Part shown: piece by piece, positions 21,237 to 27,235 of the stretch | Layout: every line of letters starts with the position of its first letter | Numbering within the stretch: the stretch's first letter is position 1 | Position numbers and translations under genes: made by a program | Assembly: GCF_024223415.1 (NCBI RefSeq) | Contig: NZ_CP100501.1 | Reading direction: 5' to 3' (one strand) | DNA: 64,000 bases | Source of the DNA: Escherichia coli | GTDB taxonomy: Bacteria > Pseudomonadota > Gammaproteobacteria > Enterobacterales > Enterobacteriaceae | Notes under the pieces: model-generated | Seen by the model: the letters and a program-made list of their open reading frames with translations, nothing else | Databases searched by the model: none | Told to the model about the DNA's origin: nothing

Positions 21237-22335
21237 TGTGATTATCCTCGGTATCTGTGGCTTTCAGGAACAGGCTGACGGTAGTGGCGTCTTTCAGGAT
21301 GCCGGACGGCAGGTGCCAGCCGGTATCGGATAACACCCATGGGGTACCGCCAAAACCGAACTGGCGGAAAGCCTGGTTATTGACATCGATGGCAGCACGA
21401 GCAGCGGTCAGACACTTTTCATCCGGTGCAGCCGGTGCATCGCCGGTGGGTGCCATACCACCGTCTGCGGAATACAGCTGATGCCATCCGGTCGCCCGTT
21501 TTTGTGCGTCCGGTTCACACAGCAGTGGCGCAGTCCGGTTTGTGCTGGCCTCTCCGCCGATTACGGAGACCGGATAAATCACCACGCTGAATTCCCGGGC
21601 CAGTTGCTTAAGCGCGGGCTCCAGAAGACGGCAGTTGATGCATGCGGGGTCAAGGAAGGCGTAGAGTGTGCGTTCATGACCAGTGGAGAGATTAATGGTG
21701 AACATACCCCGGTCCGCGTTGCGTTTAAGTACAGTGGCCAGATTACGGCGGGCTTCAGCGACCAGAGTATTTTTGTCTGCTGTTATCGCCGGGGTAGCGG
21801 ATGTCTCCTGCATTTCCTGTGATGCCGGGTGAACGATTTCATTTTTCGTCTCTGACGGGGCTACTGACCGGACAATTTCCTTGTCGATGTGTAATGGTGC
21901 TGTTTCTGTTACGGATTCTGTGACAGGTACCCTGAGAGGGGAATCGCTGTCCGGTTTCAGTAAAATATATCCGGCTGTTACCGCTGTCAGAAGTGCCAGC
22001 ACTAATCCTGCACCGTATATCAGCCCTCTCATGAAGCTGGTTTTCCGGGCAGGAAGTTCTGCATATGCCGCGCTCAGACAGCTGTCAATCGCGGAGAGCA
22101 TTCTGCCGATGTGATGTCCGGGACGTTCAGTATCAACGGTATCAACAAGCAGTGTTTCGGTTATTTCACGAAAAGGGGTGCTGAAGGACAGGTGCATCAG
22201 CCTGTTATTACGGTTAATCAGTGCGCCCAGTTCTGTAACCGGCAGGATGGCAATAACCTCCTGACCACCGTCAGGGTACAGGGCGGTCAGGGACAGGTGT
22301 TTATTGTTCAGTGTTGCAGTGTAGCGGATGGTCAT
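21217..22335 (-). CDS. trbB: TrbB, thioredoxin-fold disulfide isomerase-like transfer protein
   Basis: 372 aa; CINC (CxxC) motif; TM segment; synteny. Confidence 0.75.
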   Translation of the reverse strand: MTIRYTATLNNKHLSLTALYPDGGQEVIAILPVTELGALINRNNRLMHLSFSTPFREITETLLVDTVDTERPGHHIGRMLSAIDSCLSAAYAELPARKTSFMRGLIYGAGLVLALLTAVTAGYILLKPDSDSPLRVPVTESVTETAPLHIDKEIVRSVAPSETKNEIVHPASQEMQETSATPAITADKNTLVAEARRNLATVLKRNADRGMFTINLSTGHERTLYAFLDPACINCRLLEPALKQLAREFSVVIYPVSVIGGEASTNRTAPLLCEPDAQKRATGWHQLYSADGGMAPTGDAPAAPDEKCLTAARAAIDVNNQAFRQFGFGGTPWVLSDTGWHLPSGILKDATTVSLFLKATDTEDNHNEPASR

Positions 22336-23666
22336 TGTGCTTTTTCCTTGTCGGCGGGATGCTGTTTTTCGGTGGTTTCGGTGGTTTCGGTGGTTTCGGT
22401 GGTTTCGGTGGTTTCGGTGGTTTCGGTGGTTTCGGTGGTTTCGGTGGTTTCACCAGTGTCAGTGTCTTCGTCGTTATCATGGCGGCGGGGTATCACGTCA
22501 TCCGTGAGTGACCAGCGGGTCCTGATCTGACGTTTACGATCGCGATCTGGCTGAGGTTCGTCCCATATCAGGCCCAGCCCCAGCATGTCCCGTCGAAGCC
22601 CTTCAATGGCCTCTTCCACACAGGGTTCCGGGCAGGGGAGGCCGAGACGGCTGGCTTCATTTTCTGCCCGGGCAACGGCCACCACGCCGGCCCCTTCGAT
22701 GAAGCCTTTTGTGGTGTTTGCCCGGTGAAGGGCATAGAAGAGCGTCCGGTCAACGCCCTTGAGCCACAGCCAGTTCGGAGGCGTCAGGCGCAAATCATGT
22801 GCGTAAAGCCAGACCAGACCGCTGCGAACGTAACGGTGCTGCCTGAGCCACTTTTGTGCGCCTTCTGTTTTGATGACCCGGATAAAGGCGTTTCTGGCCA
22901 GTGAATACACCGGCGTGCTGAAACGCCCCTGGTCCCGTTTACTTTTGAGCCTGCAGGAGAGATTGAGGTTGTTCATCAGGGCTACCGCTGCTTTCCGGTC
23001 ACCGAGGAAGAACTGCAGGCCAAAGATGGCAAAGAGCGCTTTTTCATGTGGGGCCATGTCTTTCCAGCTGGTCAGTGGTTGCCCCAGTTGCGCCATGAAG
23101 CACTGGCGTGTGGACGCAACATCGAGCTGCATGTTGCGGATAAGGTTGTTCTGCTCCACAAAGGCTTCGGGGGTTAGTGCGACACGGCGCTCGGGACGTT
23201 TTTGTCCGTGGAAGAGTCTGTTGTTGTCTCCGTCAGCCAGAACGGGGGCGATCGCCGGTGACAGAGCTGAAAAAATATGGGGCAGTGTGTGGATATTCAG
23301 TGGCCTGCGGGTAAAACGGGGCTGGGCCGGATGGTGAAACCACATCCACAGAAAGCCGAATGTCATGGGAAGCAGAATCAGCCAGAGGATCCCCACTGTC
23401 CGGGACATAACATCCAGCCACTGGCTGAAAGTGATGGTTGCCGCGTTGTTAGCAGTGATGGCCAGCAGGTTGTAACGGGGGACGGCAAAGTTGTGAAAGG
23501 GCCCCCAGTCAATCATGCCCCACAGTGTGTGCAGGATCAGGCAGGAGGCGAAGACGATTTCAGGTAAAAAGCGCCAGATGATAATCGCAAAGAGCAGGCA
23601 TATGGCACCGACGATATACCATATAGCCATTGGATCTTCGGCGGCAGACGTCTGTTGGTAAGACAC
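22332..23666 (-). CDS. trbA: TrbA (DotM-like inner-membrane transfer protein)
   Basis: 444 aa; N-terminal TM helices; synteny; C-terminal (ETT)9 repeat. Confidence 0.75.
   Translation of the reverse strand: MSYQQTSAAEDPMAIWYIVGAICLLFAIIIWRFLPEIVFASCLILHTLWGMIDWGPFHNFAVPRYNLLAITANNAATITFSQWLDVMSRTVGILWLILLPMTFGFLWMWFHHPAQPRFTRRPLNIHTLPHIFSALSPAIAPVLADGDNNRLFHGQKRPERRVALTPEAFVEQNNLIRNMQLDVASTRQCFMAQLGQPLTSWKDMAPHEKALFAIFGLQFFLGDRKAAVALMNNLNLSCRLKSKRDQGRFSTPVYSLARNAFIRVIKTEGAQKWLRQHRYVRSGLVWLYAHDLRLTPPNWLWLKGVDRTLFYALHRANTTKGFIEGAGVVAVARAENEASRLGLPCPEPCVEEAIEGLRRDMLGLGLIWDEPQPDRDRKRQIRTRWSLTDDVIPRRHDNDEDTDTGETTETTETTETTETTETTETTETTETTEKQHPADKEKAQ
22371..22451 (-). repeat. 9 x 9-bp perfect tandem repeat (ggtggtttc) inside trbA, encoding (ETT)9
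   Basis: Direct reading of sequence; in-frame in trbA C-terminus. Confidence 0.9.
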
Positions 23667-23976
23667 GGGGATTCCTCCATAGATGAATGGATAAATTTCG
23701 GGATTAAGTCGGGTGGCATGAATGCGAATCAGCGCCGGTAATAACCGGACAGGAATGAATTCAACAGGACATTTTTACAGAGAAGAGCGAACGGCAGAAG
23801 GTGGTGGGAGACAGGTACAAAAAAACCGACTGGTGAGGCCGGTTTTTTTGCGATTCCGGGGTGGAGTTGGTGGCTCTGACCGGAGGAAGTCTCTTTTCAG
23901 CTAACAATGAGAGAGCTGTTGTGACAGGCAATGTAAGAGTAAGCAGCAGTGATTTCCTCCATTGACGGAGAAACGG

Positions 23977-24060
23977 ATGATTAACCTGTTAATCATCGTT
24001 CTCAGGGCGGTTGTTGCTGTGGCTAACGCAGTGATAGCTCTCCGGGAACTGGTTGACTGA
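23977..24060 (+). CDS. possible 27-aa hydrophobic peptide (small membrane peptide or type I toxin-like)
   Basis: GGAG SD 7 nt upstream of ATG; MINLLIIVLRAVVAVANAVIALRELVD; below ORF-track size cutoff. Confidence 0.25.
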   Translation: MINLLIIVLRAVVAVANAVIALRELVD

Positions 24061-24122
24061 TAATCCCGGAAACGTACTTAAGGGCAGAGGGTCACCTCCT
24101 TCTGCCCTTTAACAAAATATGC

Positions 24123-24299
24123 TCAGGTTAAAAATCGAAAACCTTCCTGCACTTCCTGTGCCTGTTCCCGTGAGCCAAACATGAGCCGGCTTTTACCCGG
24201 AACTCCCCAGGAAATATATTCTACATCCACCCACCATTTTCCGTATTCTTCATACGGTCCGGATATCACTTTAGTGACAAATGCATCAATCAGGTTCAT
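24123..24299 (-). CDS. possible 58-aa protein
   Basis: AAAGGTG SD-like; MNLIDAFVTKVISGPYEEYGKWWVDVEYISWGVPGK...; below ORF-track cutoff. Confidence 0.3.
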   Translation of the reverse strand: MNLIDAFVTKVISGPYEEYGKWWVDVEYISWGVPGKSRLMFGSREQAQEVQEGFRFLT

Positions 24300-24448
24300 T
24301 TTTACACCTTTCTGTTATTCTGCTTATTACGACCAGCAGACAGCAAATATTAAAAATAACGCGGCGGTAAAAATGGCAATTTTTTTCATGCTGTATTTTT
24401 GCCATTTATTTTCTTTGAAATGGTTTTTTTCTTCATATCAGCAAATAA

Positions 24449-24916
24449 TTATTTCTTATTCTGTTTTCTCCAGGTCCATGGTGGTACCGGATTTTTATCT
24501 GCCCATAATCCCCGCTTCAGGGCGCGGGCATCACGCTGGAGCGGCGGGAGAGTATAGTCATTATTGTAGTCCGGGTACACCCAGGCAGCGCCGTTACGGA
24601 CCTGCCAGCGATTTGCTTCTGTGCCGTCAGCGGTATAGACCCGGCCGAGAATACGGCCATACCTGTCTGTCTGCGCGTATTGCACGGTTACGGGCTTTCC
24701 GGCCACCAGGTCCTTCAGCTGAGTGGCTGACCAGCGTCCAAAGGGCTGTTTCTTTTCCGGTGCATCAATATTAGCCAGACGGACCCTGACAGGCTTTTTG
24801 TCCTGTAATATTTCCAGCGTATCACCATCAAGAACGCGGATGACGTGCCCCTGAATCTGTGCGGCACAGAGAGAAGCGGAAAAAATAATGGTGAGTGAAA
24901 AGATATATTTTATCAT
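24449..24916 (-). CDS. nuc: secreted thermonuclease-family (SNase-like) nuclease
   Basis: 155 aa; signal peptide; GDTLEI...RVRLANIDAPE motif of staphylococcal nuclease homologues. Confidence 0.8.
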   Translation of the reverse strand: MIKYIFSLTIIFSASLCAAQIQGHVIRVLDGDTLEILQDKKPVRVRLANIDAPEKKQPFGRWSATQLKDLVAGKPVTVQYAQTDRYGRILGRVYTADGTEANRWQVRNGAAWVYPDYNNDYTLPPLQRDARALKRGLWADKNPVPPWTWRKQNKK

Positions 24917-26687: not shown

Positions 26688-26941
26688 CGGTGGGGTACAA
26701 ACGCAGAAATTTTGTTGTCATTACATCATCAGTTTTAGCCTGCAGAGACGCTGAAAAATCAGCGTTTTCAGACCCTGTTCAGGTTAGTGAATATTCTTGC
26801 CTGGCCTTTCGGCAATATCAATCCCCTGATGTGTGCACACGTAGTCACTTTCCGGCTTTATTTCTGTCCCTGACACAAAATACGTGGTGGCATGAAAAGG
26901 ATTGTGGCGGACAGGAAAACGATTAGAATAGCGGCGGGCGC

Positions 26942-27235
26942 TTGAGGCTGTATGCCGAAAGCGTTTTGTGGACGGCATGTAGCAGAAAGCCCCAGGCGAT
27001 TTTTTTATCAATCAACCCAGGGCCCACTGTAATGCCTAGACAACATTATAGTAGCCCGATGACGGCCGAAAGGCAATGGAGGGGCTGCGATGCCACAACG
27101 AACGTTTTTAATGATGTTAATCGTCGTCTGTGTGACGATACTGTGTTTTGTCTGGATGGTGAGGGATTCGCTTTGCGGATTTCGTATCGAGCAGGGAAAT
27201 ACGGTGCTTGTGGCAACGTTAGCCTACGAAGTTAA
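26942..27235 (+). CDS. pndC: PndC-like overlapping reading frame (mok analogue) of the pnd locus
   Basis: ORF overlapping pndA in another frame, as in hok/mok architecture. Confidence 0.4.
   Translation: MRLYAESVLWTACSRKPQAIFLSINPGPTVMPRQHYSSPMTAERQWRGCDATTNVFNDVNRRLCDDTVFCLDGEGFALRISYRAGKYGACGNVSLRS

What the first reader, a model, noticed from the sequence alone, without database searches (positions are those of the whole stretch)
23977..24299. Two unannotated small ORFs between trbA and nuc (27-aa hydrophobic peptide; 58-aa protein)
Both are below the ORF-track size cutoff but have plausible ribosome-binding sites. The 27-aa peptide MINLLIIVLRAVVAVANAVIALRELVD has the composition of a small membrane peptide or type I toxin.
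Basis: seen in the sequence. Interest (0 to 1): 0.35.

Follow-up and report, generated by a model that had tools for sequence, protein, structure and literature searches.

The report
Collapsed DqlB/AgrB toxin–antitoxin remnant plus small OB-fold gene
The 27-residue peptide gene belongs to the known DqlB/DinQ family of plasmid "addiction" toxins and sits beside its antitoxin RNA gene AgrB, but this copy has lost both promoters through a deletion and is probably silent; the 58-residue gene is a real, conserved plasmid/phage gene of unknown function.

Summary
Both ORFs exist exactly as described: 23977..24060 on the + strand (27 aa) and 24299..24123 on the - strand (58 aa). Both have good ribosome-binding sites.

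[quoted passage not shown] It scores 47.2 bits against NCBIfam NF041473 (cutoff 35), and RefSeq annotates it as dqlB on 99.2%-identical IncK2/Z plasmids. The antitoxin sRNA gene AgrB lies just upstream at 23904..23817 on the - strand (Rfam RF02891, 51.8 bits, gathering score 40). The family was shown experimentally to be a plasmid addiction module in 2025, so the system is already known.

**State of this copy.** It is a collapsed allele. Relative to an otherwise near-identical canonical locus, 234 nt are missing. The deletion arose by recombination between the 33-nt direct repeat that provides the AgrB/target complementarity. It removed both promoters and the first part of the toxin leader. 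The ORF also lacks 4 conserved codons (31 to 27 aa). Similar collapses arose independently in IncX1 and IncX5 plasmids. I infer that the locus is silent.

**58-aa ORF.** It is under strong purifying selection (dN/dS 0.06) and belongs to a widespread family of about 58 aa (phrog_8110). The predicted structure is a minimal OB-like barrel. Its function is unknown.

The parts
23817..23904 (-). AgrB-like antitoxin sRNA gene: a 5' single-stranded tail of about 20 nt, one stem-loop and a terminator hairpin. Its own promoter is missing.
   Evidence: Rfam RF02891 AgrB scores 51.8 bits (gathering score 40) over model positions 1-84 of 84. The predicted fold has a free 5' tail and a terminator. It differs by 1 nt from agrB of the canonical locus L002.
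23819..23849 (.). Hairpin flanked by an A-run and a T-run. It is the AgrB terminator on the - strand and is also terminator-like on the + strand, so it should block read-through into dqlB from the left.
   Evidence: The terminator scan flags it on the + strand at 23828-23844 followed by TTTTT. It is paired in the Rfam alignment and in the fold.
23873..23905 (+). Single fused copy of the 33-nt repeat GCTCTGACCGGAGGAAGTCTCTTTTCAGCTAAC. It is both the complement of the AgrB 5' part and the AgrB target (element 2) of the dqlB leader. The crossover lies within 23880-23899.
   Evidence: Canonical loci carry two copies 187-234 nt apart, and the window has none in duplicate. The pairwise alignment shows a 234-nt gap with the agrB-type left edge and the leader-type right edge. 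The two blastn HSPs overlap by 38 nt in the window.
23906..23976 (+). Remaining 3' part of the dqlB 5' leader: a conserved stem-loop region, the anti-SD element 3 (GATTTCCTCC, 23951-23960) and the SD/element 4 (GGAGAAA, 23967-23973).
   Evidence: This stretch is conserved across IncI, IncX and IncL loci. The elements are mapped by analogy with the dinQ model in PMC5066626. The fold pairs element 2 with element 3.
23977..24060 (+). dqlB ORF, 27 aa. [quoted passage not shown]
   Evidence: NCBIfam NF041473 scores 47.2 bits (cutoff 35) and matches only model positions 1-26 of 31. Alignments to 31-aa homologues show the gap.
24080..24109 (+). Conserved 3' stem-loop of the dqlB mRNA (12 bp), lying between the convergent dqlB and 58-aa genes.
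   Evidence: It is conserved across the aligned loci, with changes on both arms, and is paired in the fold.
24123..24299 (-). 58-aa conserved small protein gene of unknown function (phrog_8110 family), predicted to be a minimal OB-like beta-barrel. Its RBS AAGGTG is at 24310..24305.

Best explanation

In canonical loci, agrB and dqlB are transcribed divergently from two promoters in a spacer of about 200 nt. AgrB acts in trans, because its 5' part is complementary to a repeat copy (element 2) inside the dqlB leader. Pairing there keeps the Shine-Dalgarno sequence closed and triggers RNase III cleavage. When the plasmid is lost, AgrB decays and the membrane toxin kills the cell.

In this window, recombination between the two direct-repeat copies deleted the 234 nt between them. 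That removed the agrB promoter, the dqlB promoter and leader element 1. What remains is an intact AgrB body and terminator fused directly to the distal leader and ORF. The ORF has also lost 4 codons in the conserved C-terminal motif.

Shown here: family membership, the deletion and its junction, the absence of promoter-like sequence, and recurrence of the same event elsewhere. Inferred: the locus is no longer transcribed and no longer acts as an addiction module.

The 58-aa gene is a genuine, selected gene encoding a small OB-like barrel. It is most likely a nucleic-acid- or protein-binding accessory protein of plasmids and phages. That function is an inference from the fold only.
For: - **Toxin family:** NF041473 scores 47.2 bits against a cutoff of 35. 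RefSeq annotates dqlB on 99.2%-identical plasmids.
- **Antitoxin:** Rfam AgrB scores 51.8 bits against a gathering score of 40. It is the only copy in the 64-kb window.
- **Deletion:** against L002 (AP027207) the flanks are near-identical and a clean 234-nt gap lies inside the repeat. L002's repeat spacing is exactly 234 nt, and the window has no second copy.
- **No residual trans target:** no AgrB complementarity is found downstream of the fused repeat.
- **Promoters:** the four canonical loci have an agrB promoter of 8.0-10.6 bits and a dqlB promoter of 6.4-12.3 bits with a TATAAT-type -10 box, all inside the deleted segment. The window's best site on either strand is 5.0 bits or less, against a shuffle median of 7.4. 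The consensus scan finds none in 23500-24190.
- **Block to read-through:** a terminator-like hairpin sits immediately upstream on the + strand.
- **ORF lesion:** a 4-codon deletion relative to five 31-aa homologues.
- **Recurrence:** compact alleles occur in IncX5 and IncX1. In IncX1 different crossover points within the repeat show at least 2-3 independent events.
- **Frequency:** 58 plasmids carry this window's junction. 262 of 321 records cover at least 80% of the IncX1 junction query, and most sampled rows do so in one piece.
- **Mechanism of canonical loci:** PMC3567139, PMC5066626, PMC12365149 and PMC12317039.
- **58-aa gene:**
Against: - Silence is inferred from sequence only, and no transcript data were available.
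- Weak or non-sigma-70 promoters, or read-through from the convergent nuc/58-aa genes on the - strand, cannot be excluded.
- The ORF, SD, AgrB body and both hairpins are all intact.
- Collapsed alleles are very common in IncX1. This could mean the compact form is tolerated because it retains some function, not only because the deletion is frequent.
- E. coli DinQ itself is 27 aa and toxic, so the shortened DqlB could still be toxic.
Confidence: 0.75

Rival explanations
1. The locus is a fully working DqlB-AgrB post-segregational killing module like those of pOXA-48 and pOXA-484, merely more compact.
For: The ORF, SD, AgrB sequence and both terminator hairpins are intact. PGAP annotates the ORF as dqlB. 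The family is a proven addiction module.
Against: Both promoters, leader element 1 and one repeat copy are deleted. Neither strand has a promoter-like site above the shuffle background. The conserved LELI residues are missing. In the validated systems AgrB acts in trans on a separate target copy.
Confidence: 0.08
2. The fused locus still has a function as a cis-antisense or anti-addiction element. In this reading, read-through from the nuc/58-aa genes on the - strand, or a weak cryptic promoter (TTGCCT-16-CATTGT, -10 box ending at 23904), yields an AgrB-containing RNA. That RNA would silence the local ORF and neutralise dqlB mRNAs of co-resident or competing plasmids.
For: The dqlB 3' hairpin has no T-tract on the - strand, so read-through from the 58-aa gene is conceivable. 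The AgrB body and terminator are perfectly preserved. Collapsed alleles reached high frequency several times independently. Some plasmids of this lineage hold a second homologous place.
Against: The cryptic promoter scores only 5.0 bits, below the shuffle median of 7.4, and the same weak site exists in canonical leaders. Recurrence is equally explained by a deletion hotspot between direct repeats. There are no expression data.
Confidence: 0.12
3. One or both ORFs are chance ORFs with no coding function.
For: They are short, and the window region gave no Pfam hit for either.
Against: The 27-aa ORF passes a curated family cutoff. Both families have dN/dS well below 1. The 58-aa family has 174 representative clusters with conserved length and a confident structure prediction.
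Confidence: 0.02

Closest known systems
DqlB-AgrB type I toxin-antitoxin of IncL plasmid pOXA-48 (PMC12365149) and of IncX3 plasmid pOXA-484 (PMC12317039)
   Same: The toxin family is the same (NF041473), and the window peptide is 21 of 27 identical to the pKPoxa-48N1 peptide over aligned residues. The AgrB sRNA family is the same. The leader elements 2-4, the SD hairpin and the 3' stem-loop are also shared.
   Different: Those loci have two separate repeat copies 188-229 nt apart with both promoters between them. The window has one fused copy, no promoters and no element 1, and its toxin is 27 aa instead of 31.
Chromosomal dinQ-agrAB locus of E. coli K-12 (PMC3567139, PMC5066626)
   Same: The single-helix inner-membrane toxin has the same MI(D/N)..IIVL start. 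AgrB matches the Rfam model that bears the chromosomal sRNA's name. The leader logic of mutually exclusive 1:2, 2:3 and 3:4 pairings is the same.
   Different: dinQ is LexA-regulated, has two sRNA copies (agrA and agrB) and a leader of about 190 nt. The window scores only 13.9 bits on the DinQ model NF041472, has no LexA box and lacks the proximal leader.
Collapsed dinQ/dqlB-agrB alleles of IncX1 (pSTY1, pSARA30, pYPE3, CP099199) and IncX5 (pBK31567) plasmids
   Same: The architecture is the same: the AgrB body and terminator are fused through a single repeat copy to the distal leader, with 73-77 nt between the AgrB 5' end and the start codon and no promoter-like sites.
   Different: These are independent events with different crossover points and different toxin subtypes (27-aa DinQ type in IncX1, 31-aa DqlB in IncX5). 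None has the window's 4-codon deletion.
hok/sok (pnd) type I systems of IncI-complex plasmids
   Same: Both are small membrane toxins controlled by an antisense RNA and serve plasmid maintenance. A hok/sok-type locus is also present in this window (sok RNA at 26936-27092).
   Different: The peptide is not Hok-like (no Hok family hit). Sok is a cis-overlapping antisense RNA, whereas AgrB is normally trans-encoded through a repeat.
phrog_8110 and small OB-fold proteins (IF1/eIF1A, eS28, PAN N-domain, SSB/PriB)
   Same: The 58-aa protein matches phrog_8110 over its full length. Its model is a beta-beta-beta-alpha-beta barrel that superposes on OB folds.
   Different: There is no sequence similarity to any characterised OB protein. 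Pfam, NCBIfam and PDB sequence searches were all negative. At 58 aa it is smaller than typical OB domains, and no function is known for any member.

Membership tests
DqlB toxin (NCBIfam NF041473, DinQ_rel) | Peptide scores above the curated whole-protein cutoff | tested here: met
   47.2 bits against a cutoff of 35, E 1.5e-12.
DqlB toxin (NCBIfam NF041473, DinQ_rel) | Full-length 31-aa peptide with the conserved C-terminal LLELIR motif | tested here: not met
   The peptide is 27 aa and matches only model positions 1-26 of 31. A 12-nt in-frame deletion removes LELI relative to five homologues.
AgrB antitoxin sRNA (Rfam RF02891) | Covariance-model score above the gathering threshold with a full-length match | tested here: met
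   51.8 bits against 40, model positions 1-84 of 84, at 23904..23817 (-).
Canonical dinQ/dqlB-agrB type I TA locus | sigma-70 promoter upstream of agrB | tested here: not met
   Canonical loci score 8.0-10.6 bits (TTGCxA-17-TAxxAT). The best - strand site in the window is 5.0 bits, below the shuffle median of 7.4. The segment holding the promoter is deleted.
Canonical dinQ/dqlB-agrB type I TA locus | dqlB promoter with the conserved -10 box, and a full 5' leader including element 1 | tested here: not met
   The conserved TATAAT/TATACT box and about 85 nt of proximal leader lie within the 234-nt deletion. The best + strand site is 4.2 bits.
Canonical dinQ/dqlB-agrB type I TA locus | Two separate direct-repeat copies that give trans complementarity between AgrB and the toxin leader | tested here: not met
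   Canonical loci have one 22-41-nt repeat pair 187-234 nt apart, and the window has none. No other AgrB-complementary stretch lies downstream.
Canonical dinQ/dqlB-agrB type I TA locus | Leader elements 2, 3 and 4 (SD hairpin), a correctly spaced SD and start codon, and a 3' stem-loop | tested here: met
   These are conserved in alignments A1 and A3 and paired in the predicted fold, which has z = -4.74.
Canonical dinQ/dqlB-agrB type I TA locus | Toxicity of the peptide, rescue by AgrB, and post-segregational killing | not testable with these tools
   These were shown for pOXA-48 and pOXA-484 homologues only (PMC12365149, PMC12317039).
Hok/Gef toxins | Sequence match to the Hok family | tested here: not met
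   The 27-aa peptide gave no Pfam or NCBIfam Hok hit. The window's hok/sok locus is elsewhere.
phrog_8110 (58-aa ORF) | Full-length profile match | tested here: met
   E 1.3e-18, residues 1-57 on profile positions 1-58 of 59.
OB-fold (58-aa ORF) | Five-stranded closed beta-barrel with a helix between strands 3 and 4 | tested here: inconclusive

The most novel reading that the evidence does not exclude
Repeat-mediated collapse may be a general, recurrent and possibly selected way in which plasmids disarm trans-antisense type I toxin-antitoxin loci in one step. The fused remnant may not be inert. Transcription from neighbouring genes could make it an AgrB source, acting as an anti-addiction element against competing dqlB plasmids. 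The adjacent 58-aa OB-like protein could act on these RNAs.
Probability: 0.08. Interest if true: 0.55.

Novelty: already known. Interest (0 to 1): 0.22.

Why it matters
The system itself is known and annotated, so the original finding adds little. The useful point is practical. An intact dqlB or dinQ ORF called by annotation pipelines does not guarantee a working addiction module. In this IncK2/Z lineage, in most sampled IncX1-type loci and in IncX5 pBK31567, the locus has lost both promoters by recombination between the repeats that make the antitoxin work. ORF-based surveys of dqlB prevalence (for example 83% of IncB/O/K/Z plasmids in PMC12365149) may therefore overestimate the number of functional modules. 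Strategies that cure plasmids or exploit their toxin-antitoxin systems should check the locus architecture first. The 58-aa family is a widespread plasmid and phage protein still without a function.

Tried and rejected
- **Trans target downstream of agrB:** I searched by RNAduplex and by 20-mer direct-repeat scan. Nothing was found beyond the cis overlap, which led to the comparison with other plasmids.
- **LexA box:** CTGTTGTGACAG at about 23917 has only 4 nt between the half-sites, so it is not an SOS box (direct reading of the sequence). The weak site reported for an IncI1 dqlB (PMC12211044) lies in the segment deleted here.
- **Compact form as the ancestral arrangement:** rejected. The spacer is homologous across IncI, IncX, IncL and IncX1 canonical loci, and compact alleles differ in crossover point.
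- **20-aa hydrophobic ORF MKKIAIFTAALFLIFAVCWS at 24389..24327 (-):** it has a poor RBS and a 1-nt indel just after the ATG in a 99%-identical plasmid, so it is not a conserved gene.
- **58-aa protein against Pfam, NCBIfam, PADLOC and PDB sequences:** no significant hits.
- **Genomic context of distant 58-aa homologues:** only contigs of 0.5-1.3 kb were found, which are uninformative.
- **Tool failures:** the afdb50 fold library was unavailable, and the first homologue search failed on queueing.
- **Literature:** a search for IncK2 plus dinQ returned nothing.

Full report
**Observation.** The 27-aa ORF runs 23977..24060 on the + strand and is preceded by GGAG at 23967-23970. The 58-aa ORF runs 24299..24123 on the - strand and is preceded by AAGGTG. 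They lie between trbA (23666..22332, -, DotM_C domain) and a staphylococcal-nuclease homologue (24916..24449, -). The region is 100% identical to E. coli IncK2/Z plasmid pCFSAN083829_2 and 99.2% identical to many IncK2/Z plasmids. On those plasmids RefSeq already annotates the two ORFs as 'dqlB: DinQ-like type I toxin DqlB' and 'hypothetical protein'.

**Identity of the 27-aa ORF.** The peptide scores 47.2 bits on NCBIfam NF041473 (DinQ-like type I toxin DqlB, cutoff 35). It scores only 13.9 bits on the DinQ model itself. Across five homologues from IncI-gamma/K1, IncX3, IncX5 and IncL plasmids, pairwise dN/dS is 0.06-0.20. The window ORF against these homologues gives 0.04-0.24. As a family this is therefore a real coding gene.

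**What the literature says.**
- dql genes were defined in 2016 (PMC5066626).
- DqlB-AgrB was shown to be toxic, AgrB-rescuable through base pairing, and to act as a post-segregational killing module in pOXA-48 (PMC12365149).
- It also stabilises plasmids in the case of IncX3 pOXA-484 (PMC12317039).
- The pOXA-48 paper reports dqlB in 83.2% of IncB/O/K/Z plasmids.

**Antitoxin.** Rfam finds AgrB (RF02891) at 23904..23817 on the - strand. The score is 51.8 bits against a gathering score of 40, and the match is full length. It is the only copy in the 64-kb window. The RNA is predicted to have a free 5' tail of about 20 nt, one stem-loop and a terminator.

**Architecture: the locus is collapsed.**
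- The AgrB 5' end is only 73 nt from the dqlB start codon.
- A search for AgrB complementarity further downstream found nothing.
- In most other plasmids the same query matches in two pieces spanning about 505-570 nt, compared with about 305-330 nt of query.
- Alignment with the canonical IncI-gamma/K1 locus of pJNE082640-1 (L002) shows near-identical flanks and one clean 234-nt gap in the window.
- In L002 the gap is bounded by a 33-nt direct repeat: GCTCTGACCGGAGGAAGTCTCTTTTCAACTAAC on the agrB side and GCTCTGGCCGGAGGAAGTCTCTTTTCAGCTAAC in the leader. The start-to-start spacing is exactly 234 nt.
- The window carries one hybrid copy at 23873-23905. Its left edge is agrB-type and its right edge is leader-type, so the crossover fell in the identical 20 nt at 23880-23899.
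- Every canonical locus examined (IncI-gamma/K1 twice, IncL, IncX3, IncX1) has such a repeat pair 187-234 nt apart. The window has none.
- This repeat is what makes AgrB complementary to element 2 of the toxin leader in the dinQ model (PMC5066626).

**What the deletion removed.** I scored sigma-70 sites with a position weight matrix.
- Each of four canonical loci has a - strand promoter of 8.0-10.6 bits directly upstream of agrB (TTGCxA-17-TAxxAT).
- Each also has a + strand promoter of 6.4-12.3 bits carrying the conserved TATAAT/TATACT box.
- Both promoters lie inside the spacer.
- In the window the best sites in 23780-24000 are 5.0 bits (-) and 4.2 bits (+). The median best score in shuffled sequence is 7.4.
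- The consensus scan also finds no promoter on either strand in 23500-24190.
- It does find the agrB promoter in L003.
- Leader element 1 is also gone.
- The AgrB terminator hairpin is terminator-like on the + strand as well, so read-through from the left is unlikely.

The part of the leader that remains still folds strongly (z = -4.74), and element 2 pairs with element 3. In the dinQ model this is the translatable conformation. Any residual transcription would therefore be unprotected, which argues indirectly that there is little or none.

**Second lesion.** All five compared homologues encode 31 aa. The window ORF has a 12-nt in-frame deletion between imperfect repeats (TCTGGAACTG / TCCGGGAACTG). 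It removes LELI from the LLELIR motif shared with DinQ. In DinQ the corresponding Glu17 and Arg20 were proposed to form a polar patch in the helix (PMC3567139). Whether the 27-aa form is still toxic is unknown.

**Recurrence.**
- The window-type junction is found at 99% identity or more in 58 PLSDB records.
- IncX5 pBK31567 has the same fused architecture with a 31-aa DqlB. Five records match it at 99% or more.
- IncX1 plasmids carry a DinQ-type 27-aa toxin. A canonical IncX1 locus exists (OW849486).
- For the IncX1 junction query, 262 of 321 records cover at least 80% of it, and most sampled rows do so in a single piece, meaning the compact form.
- The compact IncX1 alleles differ in which repeat type they retain. 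CP099199 and pSTY1 are agrB-type (GAGAAGAACTCTC). pSARA30 and pYPE3 are leader-type (GAGTGGAACTGTC). Outside the repeat they are almost identical to the canonical locus.
- This pattern means at least two or three independent deletions in IncX1 alone.
- None of the compact alleles has a promoter-like site for either gene.

The collapse is therefore a recurrent event at a deletion hotspot created by the system's own regulatory repeat.

**Interpretation.** Best explanation (confidence about 0.75): a known DqlB/AgrB module that has been disarmed by repeat-mediated deletion and is now a promoterless remnant with an additionally shortened toxin. Family identity, deletion, junction, lack of promoter-like sequence and recurrence are shown. 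Transcriptional silence and loss of addiction function are inferred.

Rivals:
- A still-functional module (about 0.08).
- A remnant that retains a cis-antisense or anti-addiction role through read-through or cryptic transcription (about 0.12). The high frequency of collapsed alleles leaves this open.
- Chance ORFs (about 0.02).

**The 58-aa ORF.**
- It is convergent with dqlB and shares the intergenic hairpin at 24080-24109.
- The same gene also follows dqlB in an IncI-gamma/K1 plasmid at 79% nucleotide identity. There dS is 1.66 and dN 0.097, giving dN/dS 0.058.
- It matches phrog_8110 over its full length (E 1.3e-18).
- 174 representative clusters match at E<=1e-3, most of them exactly 58 aa and down to about 33% identity.
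- tblastn matches (36.5-52.6% identity) occur in Aeromonas, Pseudomonas and Bacteroides phages and a human-gut phage.
- No Pfam, NCBIfam, PADLOC or PDB sequence match exists.
- AlphaFold2 with a 46-sequence alignment gives pLDDT 92.5 and a beta-beta-beta-alpha-beta topology.
- BFVD returns uncharacterised phage proteins of about 57-62 aa at TM 0.83-0.91, including Vibrio phage ICP1 ORF214.

It is a real gene for a minimal OB-like barrel. A nucleic-acid-binding role is a guess from the fold. Nothing links it functionally to dqlB beyond adjacency in IncI-complex plasmids.

**Verdict.** However, the genes and the system are already known and annotated. The only new element is that this copy, like many others, is a repeat-collapsed allele. 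Interest is low to modest.

Noticed in passing
window 26936-27092 (+): A sok antitoxin RNA (Rfam RF01794, 125.6 bits) marks a hok/sok (pnd-type) type I toxin-antitoxin locus about 3 kb from the collapsed dqlB locus. The plasmid therefore keeps at least one other type I addiction module. RefSeq annotates a Hok/Gef protein at the matching place in L001.
   Followed up: partly
window 22367-22451: A perfect 9-nt tandem repeat (TTTCGGTGG, 9.4 copies) lies inside the 3' end of trbA and encodes (ETT)n near the TrbA C-terminus. Annotated TrbA length differs between related plasmids (444 aa here, 450 aa in L001, 423 aa in L002).
   Followed up: partly
window 24327-24389 (-): A 20-aa hydrophobic ORF, MKKIAIFTAALFLIFAVCWS, lies between nuc and the 58-aa gene and looks like a signal peptide or small toxin. 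It has no good RBS. A 99%-identical plasmid has a 1-nt indel right after its ATG, so it is probably not a gene.
   Followed up: yes
L011 600-860; L012-L014 about 465-760; L004 1500-1815: IncX1 dinQ-type and IncX5 dqlB loci show the same promoterless fused agrB-leader architecture. IncX1 alleles have different crossover points, so the deletions are independent, and the compact form appears to be the majority among IncX1-type loci in PLSDB.
   Followed up: partly
window 23977-24112 compared with L002: The dqlB coding region and 3' hairpin are much more diverged from pJNE082640-1 than the flanking leader, agrB and trbA-upstream DNA: 7 substitutions in the 81 aligned ORF bases plus the 12-nt gap, against only 3 substitutions in the rest of the aligned region up to the start codon. 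At some positions the window resembles the LT795504-type allele. This suggests a small recombination patch.
   Followed up: no
window 24192-24220 (+) and 24379-24353 (-): The strongest promoter-like site in the area (TTTACC-17-TATATT, 10.8 bits) lies inside the 58-aa gene on the opposite strand and points towards nuc in antisense. A weaker - strand site (TTGCCA-15-TATTTT, 8.4 bits) could be the 58-aa gene's own promoter.
   Followed up: no
window 12391-12477 (+) and 18042-18158 (-): Two ALIL pseudoknot hits (Rfam RF01497, 63.8 and 116.2 bits) were found elsewhere in the window. From my own knowledge this family marks IS3-family frameshift signals, so they would indicate IS3-family insertion sequences.
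   Followed up: no
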